12,295 bases of DNA from a virus (Duplodnaviria; Heunggongvirae; Uroviricota; Caudoviricetes): the IMG/VR virus record IMGVR_UViG_2531839233_000006. One strand, 5' to 3'. A program made the position numbers and the translations under genes. Numbering within the stretch: position 1 is the stretch's first letter; every line of letters starts with the position of its first letter. Shown piece by piece: positions 7,001 to 9,401 of the stretch. The notes below the pieces were generated by a model, which ran no database searches, was not told the origin of the DNA, and was given only the letters and a program-made list of their open reading frames with translations.

Positions 7001-9401
7001 CCCCCTGGCGACCAGCGGCGTTTTCCGGTGCCGGAGCTTGTCCTTTCTGGAAACTCTGGCCCTTAACCTCACCGGTTGTGGTAAAACGACCACCACGTCC
7101 GGCCTGATTTTCATCCGGCGTACGCGCCACTTCTCCCGGTAACGGATATCCCTGTCCGGGATGAATATCGCCGGGAGCGGGCAGGCGTGGACGCTCAGTT
7201 AACTCCTGTGCTGTCGGACCGGCATCACCTTCAGCCATCTGTGAACGTACAAGCTCCTCTGCCGTCGGCGCGTTGCCACGGGCAAGGCGGGCCTGTACCT
7301 CCGTATCATCCCCCGTGAAACCACGGAATCGCGGGTCACGCATGAACGCGGGCTGCTCCATCGGGTCAGCATCAGCAATACGCTCTCCGTCAGCCAGGGT
7401 GTTAATGGTTTCCGTTGCCACATCTTCAGAGAACGCAGGATTATCCATTTCAACGGCATACTGATTCTCGCCTTTCTTCACTACGGACGGTTTCAGGCCG
7501 GTGGCGGCGGCATTACGGAAAACATCACTCCCCATGGCGCTTTTCTCATCCGTGAAATAACGGTTGTCCGGGCGCACCTTCTCAATGCGTTCCGCTGGTC
7601 TGGACGCACCATTCCCGTTAATTTCAATGCGGACTTCATTCGGGTCCCGGAACCGCACCGTCGGGTAAATGCTCCCGTTACCATCCTCCGCATTTTCAGG
7701 CTGTGACTGTGCTTCCGGCGTCACTTCCTGTTGTGGGCGAATGACTTCTCGTATTGCCTGAAACTGTTGTTCTTCAGTCTCGGTGCGCCCCTCTTTCTGG
7801 CTGAGTCTGCGGTATTCCTCAAGCAGTTCAGAACGCGGCTTCGCCTTCAGCTCATTCATCACAGCCTGTCGCTTCGTCTGTTCGTCCAGTTCATTCAACA
7901 ACTGGCTGGCAGCTTCCCGGCGATGAGCTGCGGATGCGTCACCCTCTGTTGCCATATCCGCATCAGCATACTGCTCCAGAAGCTGCTCGCGATTCATGCC
8001 CTGCATGGATTCACGCTGCTGCGCCACCGGATCAACAGATTCTGGTTGCGGGGCTGCGTCGTCCTGCTGCACGGTTTCAGCATCACGCATGGCGGTTTCT
8101 TCTGCGGCCTGACGTCTGCCACGATATCCGGCAACCGCACCGAATGGAGCCCCCATCGCAGCACCAAAGGCTGCACCTTCGATCGTTGCGTCAGCCACGC
8201 CCTCCCACGGTGACACACCCATTCCGGCGGTCTCACGCAATGCCGTGTTTTCCTGATAGCGTGAATAGCCGCCCTGCGCCGCATTAATCGCCCCCTGTTC
8301 CGTGGCATTTCTGACAATGCCGCTTTTAACGGTCTTCGCTGTGCCTCGTGTCACCAGATTAAACAGTTGTGCGTCACCCAGTTTTGCCGCCATGGCATTC
8401 ACAGCCAGCAATTCAGGATCGGTTGCCAGCTGCGCGCGCACCTCATCGGCAACACGCTCTTTTGCCAGATCCATTTTCTGGCGATCAGTAAGCTGTGCGT
8501 GCTGCGGGTCGGCGTCAATGGACAAAAACGTCTGCTGAAATTTCGGTGACTGCGCCAGCTCAGAGTAATCAGCATTAAGAACAGCATCTGCTGCCGCCAT
8601 TGCACTCTGCCCCTGTGCACTTACAGTGGAATGGGTGATCAGGCCCGCCTGGAATAAATCCGGCATTTTTTTATCGACAGCTTCTGCTGCCAGTGCCGTG
8701 GCTCTTTCCGGCTGCATCCCTGCCGCGATGTATTTTTTCTCCAGCCCGGCGGTCAGCATTTTTCGCAGTGTGACATCACCCACCTTTCTAGCCACACCGC
8801 CAGCAACCATATCAGGTACAAGCGCACCAATCAGGTTTACACCCTTCGCCACCCAGACCGCAGAATCATTATAGCCTTCGGTCATCGGCGTATTCAGCGC
8901 ACGAACTGCACCCGGCGACATCTTACCGGTCAGCCATTCATCAGTGGCTTTGGCACCATCACTGACAGCCTTACCGGTTGCCTTCAGACCTTTACCGACA
9001 ATATCAGTAACCGCGTTTTTGCCATCAGGCAGGGTATCGATGACCTCATCAGCCCCCCTGCTGCCACCGGCAAAAATATCCTGCACAGTTGCGACACCCG
9101 GCAGCCCCATACGGCTGAACTCATTTAAAATACGCGCCCCTGTTTTTACCGGGCTCTGAATCATCGCATCACCGAGTCCACGGGCCATTTCCCCTGTTCC
9201 CCGGACGGACTGGGCGAAACCTTTACCCATTGTTGGCAATACATCGCCCAGGCTGAACGACGTACTGTTATCCTTCCAGCGATTCGGATCAGAGAAAAAT
9301 GCTTCATAGCTGTCAGTTTCGCCGGGTTGCTGAATGTTCAGGCTGTTACGATTCTGGTTACCGAGTTGCGCCTCAGGACGCTGTTCCTCTGAATAGGCCA
9401 T
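1020..9401 (-). CDS. Giant multidomain protein (2793 aa) with two HExxH zincin-like metallopeptidase signatures; putative virion-packaged/ejected or polyvalent effector-like protein
   Basis: Uninterrupted 8.4-kb ORF, far beyond chance. Preferred start is the ATG at 9399-9401, with GGAG 5 nt upstream and just downstream of a terminator hairpin; the ORF-track start at 9440 would put the hairpin inside codons 2-7. Motifs: HEWFH (aa 1297-1301 in track numbering, nt 5538-5552) with a downstream EMAARAFERY; HEIIHHAMEH (aa 1564-1573, nt 4722-4751); glycine zipper GAAFGAAMGAPFGAVAG (nt 8130-8180); Pro-rich degenerate repeats around aa 745-900. No Walker A/P-loop. Function is inferred from motifs only. 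Confidence 0.85.
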   Translation of the reverse strand: MAYSEEQRPEAQLGNQNRNSLNIQQPGETDSYEAFFSDPNRWKDNSTSFSLGDVLPTMGKGFAQSVRGTGEMARGLGDAMIQSPVKTGARILNEFSRMGLPGVATVQDIFAGGSRGADEVIDTLPDGKNAVTDIVGKGLKATGKAVSDGAKATDEWLTGKMSPGAVRALNTPMTEGYNDSAVWVAKGVNLIGALVPDMVAGGVARKVGDVTLRKMLTAGLEKKYIAAGMQPERATALAAEAVDKKMPDLFQAGLITHSTVSAQGQSAMAAADAVLNADYSELAQSPKFQQTFLSIDADPQHAQLTDRQKMDLAKERVADEVRAQLATDPELLAVNAMAAKLGDAQLFNLVTRGTAKTVKSGIVRNATEQGAINAAQGGYSRYQENTALRETAGMGVSPWEGVADATIEGAAFGAAMGAPFGAVAGYRGRRQAAEETAMRDAETVQQDDAAPQPESVDPVAQQRESMQGMNREQLLEQYADADMATEGDASAAHRREAASQLLNELDEQTKRQAVMNELKAKPRSELLEEYRRLSQKEGRTETEEQQFQAIREVIRPQQEVTPEAQSQPENAEDGNGSIYPTVRFRDPNEVRIEINGNGASRPAERIEKVRPDNRYFTDEKSAMGSDVFRNAAATGLKPSVVKKGENQYAVEMDNPAFSEDVATETINTLADGERIADADPMEQPAFMRDPRFRGFTGDDTEVQARLARGNAPTAEELVRSQMAEGDAGPTAQELTERPRLPAPGDIHPGQGYPLPGEVARTPDENQAGRGGRFTTTGEVKGQSFQKGQAPAPENAAGRQGETLEGDMVRRGLPSPDAQNATAPVREGLPAPDIARNVRMPQPESLPRTVRDSLPELAQQAEVRRQAGGNRDIPQPETIAPESETTVSTDREATVRGGEVRGKKIEDFGEEIKGAAKHRYAQLAETLGKTLEDRDYATQPLSKLFPKPDYAKLANEGADADTLAMIALYRSDIPAKTKHNTAGWGESIKKVRHSVSEMLNGTVSAKRLAEWMEGRMPSRYADTWQLLRTLPPSQMDRASAYRVVSGVYQAAGGKRYDPPQKLYSLRNKDNKGSNLFFSESRDELLAKAKVWFAEQEEKSQAKGDEKTAPSPDDKIRFDVYRNTRSGDIFIAYGKNKMRVRGGFKSASDARKYIDSHRDELVRHVKEMREISREEQRNATNRDRTGPERRKGNVSPEQFSDAFGFRGVQFGNYVEGPRRQADLNRAYDSLHDLAEVLNVPTKALSLNGRLGLAFGARGKGKAAAHYESGEVAINLTKGNGPGALAHEWFHSLDNYFGRYDVSNDGKITSGGDFMTEAQRVRRIFKDGRYVDAEYPVRQEVYDAFKGVIQAIKNSDMPRRSALLDKVRSKPYWSTDVEMAARAFERYVQDKARMAGVENDYLVNIRKAPEHNTDNTYAYPTNAELDGGIREAFDHLFRTLKTRETDKGVAFYSRKGVTRTPEGNLISDVNRSAEAKGSPVPQVEAVARGVMSGIKDSDLKVRVVKSQKEAEALAGELFDGYGRVHAFYRPDKREIVLVADNIPDGRTVREKLRHEIIHHAMEHVVTPAEYQTIIKTVLKTRDSDNVTIREVWRKVDASYGKESPEVQAGEFLAHMAEKQPNKFVAAWERVVALVKGVLRRTGLLKPTELNDIRLVRETIRTLGQRVREGYTPREDGAGASFQYSRSGKRDPFKVPEGEGERYRDDLARMMKSLRTTDLTVNIGRTPPVLRHLGAPDLPLVISRDTVRKATNGVKHVVPMDVIERLPELMHDPDAIYRSATERNAVVMLLDAVDKNGDPVVSAVHMKAVRSRLEINKVASVYGTENGKKLKSMEMTGLTLYRREKLSRDNLLHRGLQLPKGEHSYRGSADKILYPEDIRKGPYYSRTSSLTPEETIASRFVRQMQDKFQVLKAVQENIRKTGGKVDDSNNAYMAEELFHGKAENDLNVMKERYVQPLAKLLADYKIAQADLDEYLYARHAPERNAHIAKINPKMPDGGSGMTNAEAAEIMQRVRNSGKQAQYDRLAGIIDDMLARRRELIREAGLEENGVVDAWQNAYRYYVPLKGQDVDGVVSLPRTGKGFTIGGRESRQAMGRASRAQSPSTQAIQDLSESLIRHRKNEVGNAFLKLVQDNPDKDYWQVFTDDRPDTMRTIAERKDQETGETIREVVERPVPMAMMADRYFTTKKNGKTYYIKLHDPRLMRAMKSMGPETSNAFVRTLGKVNRFLATVNTSYNPEFLVSNFIRDVQTAVMNLKAEQGRSDGKLKGLDNLSALAVVKDSRSAMSAVYASLRGKTLTGKGAQWQKVWKEFVEDGGKTGWFNMGDLEGQQKEMDRLVSLAKGGWKGQSIGAWNSFLNLVEDANGAVENALRLSAYKHARDAGLSRQQAASLAKNMTVNFNRRGEQGALMNSLYMFANASIQGTANLVRTLGHLNGEGPLLERLRWKNLNVPQKIALAAVGAGYLLGSLNRSVAGEDDDGVNWYDKVPSHVKERNLVIMKSVFGGKAGEYWSIPLPYGYNVFFLLGHTAEGVAAGDLTASRAAGNVVGGVLGAFSPIGSETSETLSGALLKNAAPTILRPFANLAMNENFMGAQIYQENMPFGTPKPDSQLGRRSTPEAYKAFASWLNAFSGGSQYRPGAVDITPESLKFWIDYISGGTGRFISKTTDAAVKSLNGIDIPEQQVPFLGKISGEVMPYADQQKMYDRMTEIAQYHAELKSLTGAERTAFIDENNGKLSMNGLMQDTRKRLKDLRKQRDAIYADSTLSLAQQSAMVKSVERDMKIAVDRFNREYNKKVGVD

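What the first reader, a model, noticed from the sequence alone, without database searches (positions are those of the whole stretch)
8130..8180. Perfect (GxxxG)x4 glycine zipper near the N-terminal region of the giant protein
GAAFGAAMGAPFGAVAG has Gly at every fourth position over 17 residues within a hydrophobic stretch. This is a classic glycine-zipper helix-packing or membrane-insertion motif of channel-forming proteins. Together with similar segments near the C-terminus (for example GNVVGGVLGAFSPIG around aa 2551-2565) it suggests membrane insertion or pore formation, as expected for a protein that helps DNA or effectors cross the envelope.
Basis: seen in the sequence. Interest (0 to 1): 0.5.

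Follow-up and report, generated by a model that had tools for sequence, protein, structure and literature searches.

The report
Conserved glycine zipper in phage injection domain
The glycine-every-fourth-residue motif is real and is the most conserved feature of an uncatalogued N-terminal domain of the giant, essential virion protein of Shiga-toxin phage 933W. That domain is distantly related to the membrane-binding "injection" domain of phage N4's virion RNA polymerase, but the motif is too weakly hydrophobic to call a classical membrane-spanning pore helix.

Summary
The window is the late region of Stx2 phage 933W. The giant ORF is ST933Wp72 (Sp5 ORF80, phi24B gp47). It is essential, found in virions, and already proposed to be an ejection protein.

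GAAFGAAMGAPFGAVAG is really there (aa 422-438, window 8127-8177, minus strand, 3 nt from the stated coordinates). It is not chance. Across about 100 diverged giant phage proteins (25-35% identity) the zipper closes a roughly 295-residue all-helical N-terminal domain, and G426 and G430 are the only invariant residues of that domain.

The domain has no Pfam family. Profiles link it to the N-terminal injection domain of N4-like virion RNA polymerases (9 of 9 hit, E 3.5e-14 to 6.6e-5; 0 of 189 controls). The N4 domain inserts into nanodiscs.

AlphaFold2 places the zipper in a 37-residue helix, the second of two long consecutive helices. The zipper is uncharged but about 40% Gly and falls below every transmembrane hydrophobicity threshold tried. 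The C-terminal "similar segment" is not conserved.

Best reading: a tight helix-packing face that probably helps anchor or assemble the ejected domain at the inner membrane, perhaps with the neighbouring zipper proteins p70 and p71. Membrane insertion by this helix itself is untested.

The parts
1020..9401 (-). Giant virion protein gene (ST933Wp72 = Sp5 ORF80 = phi24B gp47 homologue). It is 2793 aa from M14; the annotated ORF extends to ATG 9440 (2806 aa).
   Evidence: Pfam LPD5, LPD1, MuF_C and LPD38. phrog_616 is full length starting at residue 14. SD GGAG lies before ATG 9401 and no SD lies before 9440. Essential in Sp5. Found in phi24B virions.
8091..8972 (-). Conserved all-helical N-terminal domain (aa ~157-450). 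It is uncatalogued in Pfam and is a remote homologue of the schitovirus vRNAP N-terminal injection domain.
   Evidence: 103 cluster representatives, nearly all giant proteins, carry the domain at aa ~100-450. Alignments. No Pfam hit. N4 gp50 231-445, E=1e-8; PDB search E=1.1e-6. 9/9 schitoviruses hit. Controls 0/189 and reciprocal 7/78. BFVD Foldseek. AF2 pLDDT 76.5.
8127..8177 (-). The (GxxxG)x4 glycine zipper, aa 422-438, GAAFGAAMGAPFGAVAG.
8088..8198 (-). Predicted 37-residue helix B (aa 415-451), which contains the zipper and the following basic stretch.
   Evidence: AF2 with 42 sequences gives helix 259-295 of the model, pLDDT 77-88. Per-position face analysis.
8226..8330 (-). Predicted helix A (aa 371-405), the helix immediately before helix B. 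It has a small-residue ridge (G374, G378, G383, A387, G390/391) and a polar stripe (E382/E386 in 61/67 homologues; Q382/N386 in 933W).
   Evidence: Contact with helix B is inferred, because no coordinates were available.
8109..8123 (-). Basic cluster RGRRQ directly after the zipper (aa 440-444). Family conservation ends here.
   Evidence: R440 in 33/67; positions 440-443 are 40-55% charged, mostly basic. Flank charges.
8778..8861 (-). Upstream apolar segment (aa 194-221; W196, G205, G214 conserved). It corresponds to the start of the region predicted as membrane-spanning in N4 gp50 (224-278).
6441..8090 (-). Roughly 550-residue A/E/R/P/Q-rich, poorly conserved linker between the N-domain and the LPD5/LPD1/MuF_C/LPD38 cargo.
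   Evidence: Composition. Conservation stops after aa ~445. Analogous to the low-complexity NTD-RNAP linker of N4 gp50.
9471..10736 (-). p71, 421 aa (Sp5 ORF79, essential). It has GxxxGxxxG at its N-terminus (aa 3-11).
   Evidence: Homologous to Vibrio phage gp19 (E=3e-11), which has (GxxxG)x3 at aa 7-19.
10747..10998 (-). p70, 83 aa, annotated 'bacteriocin'. It carries (GxxxG)x7 at aa 52-80.
   Evidence: Homologous to the Vibrio phage 77-aa gp18, E=9e-11.
11008..12113 (-). p69 (148 aa) and p68 (218 aa from M26), the first two genes of the conserved five-gene module p68-p72.
   Evidence: PHROGs 596 and 611. Pairwise homology and the same gene order in Vibrio phage 1.205.O.
1746..1790 (-). It lies inside LPD38 and is not a conserved zipper.

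Best explanation
The (GxxxG)x4 run is the conserved core of the last helix (aa 415-451) of a ~295-residue all-helical N-terminal domain (aa ~157-450) of the giant 933W virion protein.

This domain is the shared N-terminal 'delivery' module of phage polyvalent virion proteins, which carry varied cargo downstream. It is a distant homologue of the N-terminal injection domain of N4-like virion RNA polymerases.

The zipper gives the helix two faces: a flat Gly/Ala face and an opposite face of bulky hydrophobic residues. The flat face allows unusually tight helix-helix packing.

In the packaged or soluble state the likely partner is the preceding helix 371-405, which has its own small-residue ridge, giving a long helical hairpin.

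After ejection (inferred), the same uncharged helix engages the cytoplasmic membrane as part of an oligomer. The oligomer could be other copies of the protein and/or the neighbouring zipper-bearing proteins p70 and p71. The acidic N-flank would face the periplasm and the RGRR flank the cytoplasm. The N-domain would then be anchored at the ejectosome's inner-membrane end, while the ~550-residue linker and the enzymatic cargo reach the cytoplasm.

Shown: the motif, its conservation, the domain and its homology, the helix prediction, and the weak hydrophobicity.

Taken from the literature: virion location, essentiality, and membrane binding of the N4 domain.

Inferred: membrane engagement by this particular helix, its orientation and its partners.
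For: Motif and conservation:
- The zipper glycines are the most conserved residues of the domain. G426 and G430 are invariant in 42 sequences; counts are 65/67 and 66/67.
- The motif is kept in ~60%-identical Salmonella prophage proteins and in nearly all ~80 giant homologues at 25-35% identity.
- Window 423-439 is the most apolar and least charged 17-residue stretch of the N-terminal 450 aa family-wide (2% charged, against 21% for the domain).
- Flank charge is acidic before the zipper (mean net -1.8) and basic or neutral after it (mean +0.4; R440 in 33/67).

Structure prediction:
- AF2 with 42 sequences gives a continuous helix 415-451 at pLDDT 77-88, preceded by helix 371-405 at pLDDT 81-95.
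- Face analysis shows Gly/small and bulky-hydrophobic stripes on helix B and a small-residue ridge on helix A.

Homology to the N4 vRNAP N-terminal domain:
- PDB profile search E=1.1e-6.
- 67-sequence HMM E=1e-8, with the invariant positions matching.
- 9/9 schitovirus vRNAPs hit, E 3.5e-14 to 6.6e-5.
- 0/189 reversed or shuffled controls hit; the reciprocal HMM hits 7/78 giants at the same position.
- BFVD Foldseek retrieves N-terminal chunks of vRNAPs and polyvalent proteins.

Literature:
- The N4 NTD enters nanodiscs, associates with gp51 and is proposed to form the inner-membrane complex (PMC13434306).
- The phi24B homologue is in virions but invisible by cryo-EM.
- Sp5 deltaORF80 and deltaORF79 make DNA-filled, normal-looking, non-infectious particles.

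Context:
- Zippers recur at conserved places in p70 and p71, in both 933W and a Vibrio phage with the same five-gene module.
- Downstream cargo varies between homologues while the N-domain is constant.
Against: - The zipper is far below the hydrophobicity of a self-inserting transmembrane helix (17-mer KD 1.22, 18-mer 1.08; Hessa +5.65; Wimley-White octanol +4.1 kcal/mol; family mean +7.5; ~40% Gly).
- In N4 the predicted membrane-spanning helices are at 224-278, not at the zipper equivalent, and the schitovirus equivalent is a shorter G[AG]LxGxGxxG.
- The charge asymmetry is modest.
- The helix A-helix B contact is inferred from secondary structure, pLDDT and sequence pattern only, because no coordinates could be inspected.
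- No dedicated TM predictor (DeepTMHMM, MemBrain) could be run.
- No experiment addresses this helix in any homologue.
Confidence: 0.5

Rival explanations
1. Purely intradomain structural motif. The zipper only staples helix 415-451 onto helix 371-405 inside a soluble helical domain. Its job might be binding p71 or the portal, or threading through the tail. Any membrane contact is made by other segments (aa ~200-216 and the equivalents of N4 residues 224-278).
For: AF2 predicts two long, confident consecutive helices with complementary small-residue ridges. Hydrophobicity is below all TM thresholds tried. The N4 membrane-spanning prediction lies elsewhere. The schitovirus zipper is degenerate although that NTD still binds membranes.
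Against: Eighteen consecutive positions are almost free of charge across 67 diverged sequences, with a face of exposed bulky hydrophobic residues. That would be unusual for the surface of a two-helix hairpin in water. The same motif type recurs in the two neighbouring small or medium proteins of the module.
Confidence: 0.3
2. The zipper is a classical transmembrane glycine zipper whose homo-oligomer lines or forms a pore (as in VacA or MscS) through which DNA or effectors cross the inner membrane.
For: The pattern matches the (G,A,S)xxxGxxxG definition of channel-type zippers. The segment is uncharged, about 18 residues long and followed by RGRR. It sits in a homologue of a membrane-inserting ejection domain.
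Against: It fails hydropathy criteria. It is a single short helix. Pfam Gly-zipper models score below cut-off and match only half the profile. There are no conductance data for any homologue. In N4 the channels measured were formed by gp51 and gp52, not gp50.
Confidence: 0.12
3. Capsid-side role. The zipper mediates oligomerisation or docking of the giant protein (to p71, the portal or the scaffold) for incorporation into the procapsid, not for ejection.
For: In the N4 model gp50-NTD associates with gp51 around the portal before ejection. p71 carries an N-terminal zipper.
Against: In N4 the C-terminal region, not the N-terminal one, is required for encapsidation, while the N-terminal region is needed for injection (as summarised in PMC5512222).
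Confidence: 0.06
4. Chance low-complexity Gly/Ala run or a flexible linker with no specific role.
For: The N-domain is rich in Ala (19%) and Gly (9.5%). A run of 4 or more occurs in 1% of shuffles.
Against: G426 and G430 are invariant, the register is conserved in ~100 diverged clusters, and the helix prediction is confident.
Confidence: 0.01

Closest known systems
N-terminal (injection, membrane-associating) domain of N4-like virion RNA polymerases (N4 gp50 res. ~200-450; DEV gp71)
   Same: Homologous by profile search (E 1e-8 for N4; 9/9 schitoviruses; controls clean). Both sit at the N-terminus of a giant virion-packaged protein. Both are all-helical. Both are followed by a low-complexity linker and cytoplasmic cargo. 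Both are encoded last in a small-medium-giant gene series. Conserved positions match (G277, L295, S298, F/Y301, E382, E386, Q389, N398, G414, G422, G426).
   Different: The cargo is LPD5/LPD1/MuF_C/LPD38 rather than an RNA polymerase. The N4 clade has only a short G[AG]LxGxGxxG where the polyvalent-protein clade has 3-5 GxxxG repeats. The single 933W sequence is not hit by the small schitovirus HMM, so the link runs through family profiles. Membrane binding has been shown only for N4.
Phage-type polyvalent proteins (Iyer et al. 2017; e.g. P1 DarB-like, Bcep22-like giants)
   Same: A giant multidomain virion protein with LPD domains in a late-gene neighbourhood. Relatives carry MTase/SNF2, ddrB-ParB, InPase and LPD39.
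   Different: That survey did not define this N-terminal domain. It reported that searches with the N4 gp50 N-terminal region found nothing outside N4-like phages.
Glycine-zipper families (Pfam Gly-zipper_OmpA/YMGG/Omp, 'glycine zipper 2TM'; channel-type transmembrane glycine zippers of Kim et al. 2005, recalled from my own knowledge)
   Same: The GxxxGxxxG register, with small residues at i+1 and hydrophobic residues at i+2/i+3. There are sub-threshold Pfam hits (E 0.003-0.1).
   Different: Scores are below the gathering cut-offs. Only one helix (half of the ~45-residue two-helix profile) is matched. It is embedded in a 2,800-residue protein rather than a small lipoprotein or channel subunit. 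Membrane location has not been shown.
T7 gp14/gp15/gp16 and N4 gp52/gp51/gp50 ejectosome gene triplets
   Same: Gene order of small (p70, 83 aa), medium (p71, 421 aa) and giant (p72) at the end of the structural operon. p71 and p72 are essential, and their knock-outs give DNA-filled non-infectious particles.
   Different: p70 and p71 show no detectable sequence similarity to N4 gp52/gp51 or to any PDB chain. The module has five conserved genes, p68-p72.

Membership tests
Transmembrane (channel-type) glycine zipper | Sequence pattern (G,A,S)xxxGxxxG or GxxxGxxx(G,S,T) | tested here: met
   GxxxG x4 at aa 422-438. The register is conserved in 67 homologues.
Transmembrane (channel-type) glycine zipper | The motif lies in a helix hydrophobic enough to span a bilayer | tested here: not met
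   17-mer KD 1.22 and 18-mer KD 1.08, against the usual ~1.6. Hessa sum +5.65. Wimley-White octanol +4.1 kcal/mol (family mean +7.5).. DeepTMHMM and MemBrain were not available.
Transmembrane (channel-type) glycine zipper | Demonstrated membrane location or oligomeric channel | not testable with these tools
   Needs fractionation, TOXCAT/GALLEX or bilayer experiments.
Pfam Gly-zipper_OmpA / _YMGG / _Omp / Rick_17kDa_Anti | Score at or above the family gathering cut-off over the two-helix ~45-residue profile | tested here: not met
   17.6, 17.0 and 12.6 bits against cut-offs of 27, 28.9 and 25. Only about half the profile is matched. 4 of 10 homologues gave no hit to any of these models (3 gave no hit at all).
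Schitovirus vRNAP N-terminal injection domain (superfamily level) | Significant sequence or profile similarity, robust to composition | tested here: met
   E=1.1e-6. E=1e-8. 9/9 vRNAPs hit at E 3.5e-14 to 6.6e-5. 0/189 controls hit and the reciprocal search hits 7/78. BFVD Foldseek probability 0.9-1.0 for vRNAP fragments.
Schitovirus vRNAP N-terminal injection domain (superfamily level) | N-terminal position in a giant virion-packaged protein, followed by a low-complexity linker | tested here: met
   The domain lies at aa ~100-450 in proteins of 2,000-5,500 aa. Linker composition. Virion presence from phi24B mass spectrometry.
Schitovirus vRNAP N-terminal injection domain (superfamily level) | Associates with lipid membranes; required for injection | not testable with these tools
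   Shown only for the N4 gp50 NTD (nanodiscs). For Sp5 only whole-gene essentiality is known.
Phage-type polyvalent protein (Iyer et al. 2017) | Several unrelated LPD or enzymatic domains in one giant polypeptide encoded among virion genes | tested here: met
   LPD5, LPD1, MuF_C and LPD38. Two HExxH motifs. Late structural neighbourhood.
Podovirus ejectosome triplet (T7 gp14-16 / N4 gp52-50) | Sequence or structural homology of the small and medium partners | tested here: not met
   No PDB sequence match for p71. BLASTP of p68-p71 against N4 gp51/gp52 gave E>0.8. Only gene order and size gradation agree.

The most novel reading that the evidence does not exclude
The zipper-capped helical hairpin defines a previously unrecognised, widespread 'injection/anchor' domain superfamily. 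It unites the N-termini of Stx-phage, Vibrio-phage and other polyvalent giant virion proteins with N4-like vRNAPs. In these phages three consecutive zipper-bearing proteins (p70, the p71 N-terminus and the p72 N-domain) co-assemble through their Gly faces into the inner-membrane portal of the ejectosome. Megadalton cargo would be threaded and tethered through this assembly.
Probability: 0.3. Interest if true: 0.65.

Novelty: new member of a known kind. Interest (0 to 1): 0.5.

Why it matters
The 2,793-aa protein is essential for the most medically important group of Stx-converting phages. Its role is still described only as "tail formation" or "proposed ejection protein".

Tying its N-terminus to the experimentally tractable N4 vRNAP injection domain gives a concrete model of how giant polyvalent proteins leave the capsid and stay anchored at the inner membrane. 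Identifying two invariant glycines gives a cheap, sharp genetic test of that model.

The result also supplies a domain definition missing from Pfam and from the 2017 polyvalent-protein survey. It suggests that the small "bacteriocin-like" protein dismissed as a contaminant in phi24B virions is a genuine component.

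Tried and rejected
- The profile search of the 5.8-billion-protein database with A1 was swamped by partial E. coli prophage sequences and added no distant relatives.
- Foldseek against the PDB with the first, low-confidence model gave only noise.
- Single-sequence PDB searches with the giant protein and with p71 found nothing.
- A Pfam scan of the N-domain found no family.
- tblastn with the 83-aa protein was crippled by low-complexity masking of the zipper.
- An origin as a 12-nt tandem repeat was rejected, because TRF finds nothing.
- The C-terminal ~900 aa are shared by only 12 of the 76 N-domain-bearing giant proteins searched and were not detected in N4 gp50. 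The N- and C-terminal modules are therefore not a fixed pair.
- The C-terminal 'zipper-like' segment was rejected as a conserved feature.
- The COG1483/AAA+ suggestion in Mondal et al. for ORF80 found no support in the Pfam scan.
- The 'MuF-C metallopeptidase' label in the phi24B preprint conflicts with Iyer et al., who classify MuF_C as a PBECR RNase-fold domain. I did not test this.

Full report
**1. Where we are**

The window is 99-100% identical to the late region of Stx2 phage 933W and about 260 other Stx phages. In NC_000924 it covers ST933Wp67-p76.

The giant minus-strand ORF 1020..9440 (2806 aa) is ST933Wp72. Pfam finds LPD5 (1064-1213), LPD1 (1374-1453), MuF_C (1763-1852) and LPD38 (2489-2694). 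Nothing is found in the first 1,000 residues.

PHROG 616 matches full length from residue 14. A GGAG lies 5 nt before the ATG at 9401, whereas the annotated ATG at 9440 has no Shine-Dalgarno sequence and sits in a terminator-like hairpin. The real product is therefore most likely the 2,793-aa protein described for Sp5.

**2. The observation**

GAAFGAAMGAPFGAVAG is aa 422-438, window 8127..8177 on the minus strand, one codon from the stated coordinates.

- It is the only run of 3 or more GxxxG in the protein.
- A run of 4 or more occurs in 1.0% of 20,000 composition-preserving shuffles.
- No DNA tandem repeat underlies it.

Conservation is the stronger argument. Close E. coli relatives and ~60%-identical Salmonella prophage proteins keep GxxxGxxxGxxxG followed by [YLFH]RG[KR]RQ.

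An exhaustive HMMER search with aa 150-480 found 103 cluster representatives. Nearly all are proteins of 2,000-5,500 aa that carry the matching region at residues ~100-450 with 25-35% identity. Almost every one has 3-5 GxxxG repeats at the same place.

In a 67-sequence alignment Gly is kept as follows:

| Position | Gly kept |
|---|---|
| 426 | 65/67 |
| 430 | 66/67 |
| 434 | 57/67 |
| 438 | 47/67 |
| 422 | 35/67 |
| 414 | 59/67 |

In the 17-sequence alignment A1 the invariant columns are G277, S298, G426 and G430. In the 42-sequence alignment A2 only G426 and G430 are invariant. Conservation stops right after the zipper, at a basic patch (R440 in 33/67). A ~550-residue A/E/R/P/Q-rich linker follows.

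None of its glycines reaches 50% conservation in 40 LPD38-bearing homologues.

**3. What the zipper belongs to**

The zipper closes a ~295-residue domain (aa ~157-450) that has no Pfam family.

Proteins that carry the domain are phage-type polyvalent proteins with varied cargo: LPD5/LPD1/LPD38, LPD39, InPase, ddrB-ParB, and methyltransferase plus SNF2 or Eco57I-like. Only 12 of the 76 giant proteins searched share the 933W C-terminal ~900 aa. The N-domain is therefore the constant part and the cargo varies.

A profile of the domain hits N4 gp50, the virion RNA polymerase, in the PDB sequence set (residues 252-445, E=1.1e-6). Further tests of this link:

- The 67-sequence HMM gives E=1e-8 over residues 231-445, and the family's signature positions align (G277, L295, S298, F/Y301, E382, E386, Q389, N398, G414, G422, G426).
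- The same HMM hits all nine diverse schitovirus vRNAP N-termini tested, E 3.5e-14 to 6.6e-5.
- It hits none of 189 reversed or locally shuffled controls.
- An HMM built from the nine schitovirus sequences hits 7 of 78 giant proteins at the same N-terminal position, E down to 5e-12, although not 933W itself.
- Foldseek of the AF2 model against BFVD retrieves N-terminal chunks of 'RNA polymerase' and 'virion encapsidated RNAP' proteins and of polyvalent proteins, with probability 0.9-1.0.

Iyer et al. 2017 state that searches with the N4 gp50 N-terminal region recovered nothing beyond N4-like phages. The phi24B preprint does not mention N4 for gp47. No paper in the searchable library makes the link. 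It therefore appears to be unreported.

**4. What is known experimentally about the relatives**

*N4.* The N-terminal region of gp50 is the part implicated in injection (as summarised). The 2026 N4 study predicts membrane-spanning helices at residues 224-278 and shows that the isolated NTD enters nanodiscs. It proposes that the gp50 NTD, together with the gp51 C-terminus, forms the inner-membrane complex, while the polymerase stays tethered by the linker. The NTD could not be resolved by cryo-EM.

*phi24B.* The 2811-aa gp47 homologue is abundant in virions by mass spectrometry and invisible in the maps. The authors propose that it is an ejection protein.

*Sp5.* deltaORF80 (the giant) and deltaORF79 (the 421-aa neighbour) package DNA and make normal-looking heads, but the particles are non-infectious. 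deltaORF76 has reduced infectivity. This is the classical phenotype of ejection-protein mutants (my own knowledge of P22 genes 7, 16 and 20).

**5. Physical character of the zipper**

For 933W the values are:

| Measure | Value |
|---|---|
| Kyte-Doolittle mean, 17-mer | 1.22 |
| Kyte-Doolittle mean, 18-mer | 1.08 |
| Position-independent Hessa sum | +5.65 kcal/mol |
| Wimley-White octanol | +4.1 kcal/mol |
| Wimley-White interfacial | -1.7 kcal/mol |

Family-wide the 18-mer holds 7.3 Gly on average, with mean KD 0.90 and mean octanol +7.5 kcal/mol. By these scales it is not a self-inserting transmembrane helix.

Yet it is the most apolar and least charged 17-residue window of the whole N-terminal 450 aa across the family (2% charged, against 21% for the domain). 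The 14 residues before it are acidic (mean net -1.8). The residues after it are basic or neutral (mean +0.4).

Position by position the pattern is [GE][GA][VL][LI]-G-[AG][GA][IT]-G-[GA][AGP][MV]-G-[AG][VI][G]-G. This gives a Gly/small stripe and an opposite stripe of bulky hydrophobic residues.

Pfam glycine-zipper models (OmpA, YMGG, Omp) hit only below their cut-offs and over half a profile.

**6. Structure prediction**

AF2 with 17 sequences gave pLDDT 67.5. With 42 sequences it gave pLDDT 76.5 and pTM 0.57. The model is all-helical.

The zipper lies in a continuous 37-residue helix (aa 415-451, pLDDT 77-88). A nine-residue loop separates it from a 35-residue helix (aa 371-405, pLDDT 81-95).

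That preceding helix carries its own small-residue ridge (G374, G378, G383, A387, G390/391). It also has a polar stripe: E382 and E386 in 61/67 homologues, but Q and N in the 933W/Salmonella clade.

A tightly packed antiparallel hairpin through the two small faces is the natural reading. I could not inspect coordinates, so the contact is inferred.

**7. Context**

The upstream genes p68, p69, p70 and p71 are each homologous, in the same order, to gp16-gp19 of Vibrio phage 1.205.O (E 6e-14, 1.7e-4, 9e-11 and 3e-11). Those four genes precede a 3,130-aa giant protein with the same N-domain and zipper.

- p70 (83 aa, annotated 'bacteriocin') carries (GxxxG)x7, and its Vibrio counterpart carries (GxxxG)x5.
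- p71 starts with GxxxGxxxG, and its Vibrio counterpart has (GxxxG)x3 at the N-terminus.

The small-medium-giant order parallels N4 gp52-gp51-gp50 and T7 gp14-gp15-gp16. However, p70 and p71 show no detectable sequence similarity to the N4 proteins or to any PDB chain.

**8. Interpretation**

*Best-supported (confidence ~0.5).* The zipper is the tight-packing face of the terminal helix of a conserved injection/anchor domain.

- Shown: the motif, its selection, the domain, the homology, the helical state and the weak hydrophobicity.
- From the literature: virion location, essentiality and membrane association of the N4 homologue.
- Inferred: after ejection this uncharged helix engages the inner membrane as part of an oligomer, with its Gly face against other zipper helices (its own copies, p70 or p71), the RGRR side in the cytoplasm, and the linker and cargo tethered inside.

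*Main rival (~0.3).* The zipper only staples the hairpin within a soluble domain, and other segments contact the membrane (aa ~200-216, the equivalents of N4 224-278).

*Other rivals.*
- A capsid-side docking role (~0.06) runs against the N4 data, which assign encapsidation to the C-terminal region.
- Chance is excluded.

**9. Novelty and verdict**

The protein and its proposed ejection role are already published, and glycine zippers are a known motif. Three things appear to be new:

- the definition of the N-terminal domain with the zipper as its hallmark;
- its homology to the vRNAP injection domain;
- the recurrence of zippers across the p70-p71-p72 module.

I file it as a new member of a known kind, the membrane-associating N-terminal domains of giant podovirus ejection proteins. 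Interest is moderate, mainly because two invariant glycines make the model directly testable in an existing genetic system.

Noticed in passing
window 10747..10998 (-): The 83-aa ORF annotated 'bacteriocin' (ST933Wp70) carries a (GxxxG)x7 zipper at aa 52-80. A syntenic homologue in Vibrio phage 1.205.O (77 aa, E=9e-11) has the same GASVGGPxGAV core. The phi24B virion proteomics detected 'a homolog of a bacteriocin' and dismissed it as a contaminant. It is more likely a genuine small virion or ejection protein.
   Followed up: partly
window 9471..10736 (-): The essential 421-aa protein p71 (Sp5 ORF79) begins with GFAQGLLAG (GxxxGxxxG, aa 3-11). Its Vibrio phage homologue has (GxxxG)x3 at aa 7-19. 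An N-terminal zipper is therefore conserved in the medium-sized partner too.
   Followed up: partly
window 9419..9438 (-) and 9399..9440: A terminator-like hairpin (GCCCGGC-cattgt-GCCGGGT followed by T7) lies between the p71 stop and the giant gene. The annotated start ATG (9440) lies at the foot of this hairpin and has no SD, whereas the ATG at 9401 (M14) has GGAG 5 nt upstream. The annotated 2806-aa start is probably wrong, and there may be transcriptional attenuation before the giant gene.
   Followed up: partly
window 9471..12113 (-); L002 8969..21018: p68-p69-p70-p71-p72 form a five-gene module conserved in order and pairwise sequence (E 6e-14 to 1.7e-4) between 933W and a marine Vibrio podophage that is otherwise very distant.
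   Followed up: yes
window 8283..8297 (-), aa 382-386: Two nearly invariant glutamates of the family (E382 and E386, each 61/67) are replaced by Q and N specifically in the 933W/Salmonella clade. These are isosteric amide substitutions on the polar stripe of the helix that precedes the zipper helix.
   Followed up: no
window 5538..5552 (-) and 4737..4751 (-), aa 1297 and 1564: Two HExxH motifs (HEWFH, HEIIH) lie outside all Pfam hits and are candidate metallopeptidase (MPTase-type) sites. The phi24B preprint calls MuF_C a metallopeptidase, whereas Iyer et al. classify MuF_C as a PBECR RNase-fold domain.
   Followed up: no
window 125..469 (+): A YgiW/YdeI-family BOF (bacterial OB-fold) stress-tolerance protein gene lies just downstream of the giant gene on the opposite strand. 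It is a lysogenic-conversion-type moron next to hokW/sokW in the 933W record.
   Followed up: no
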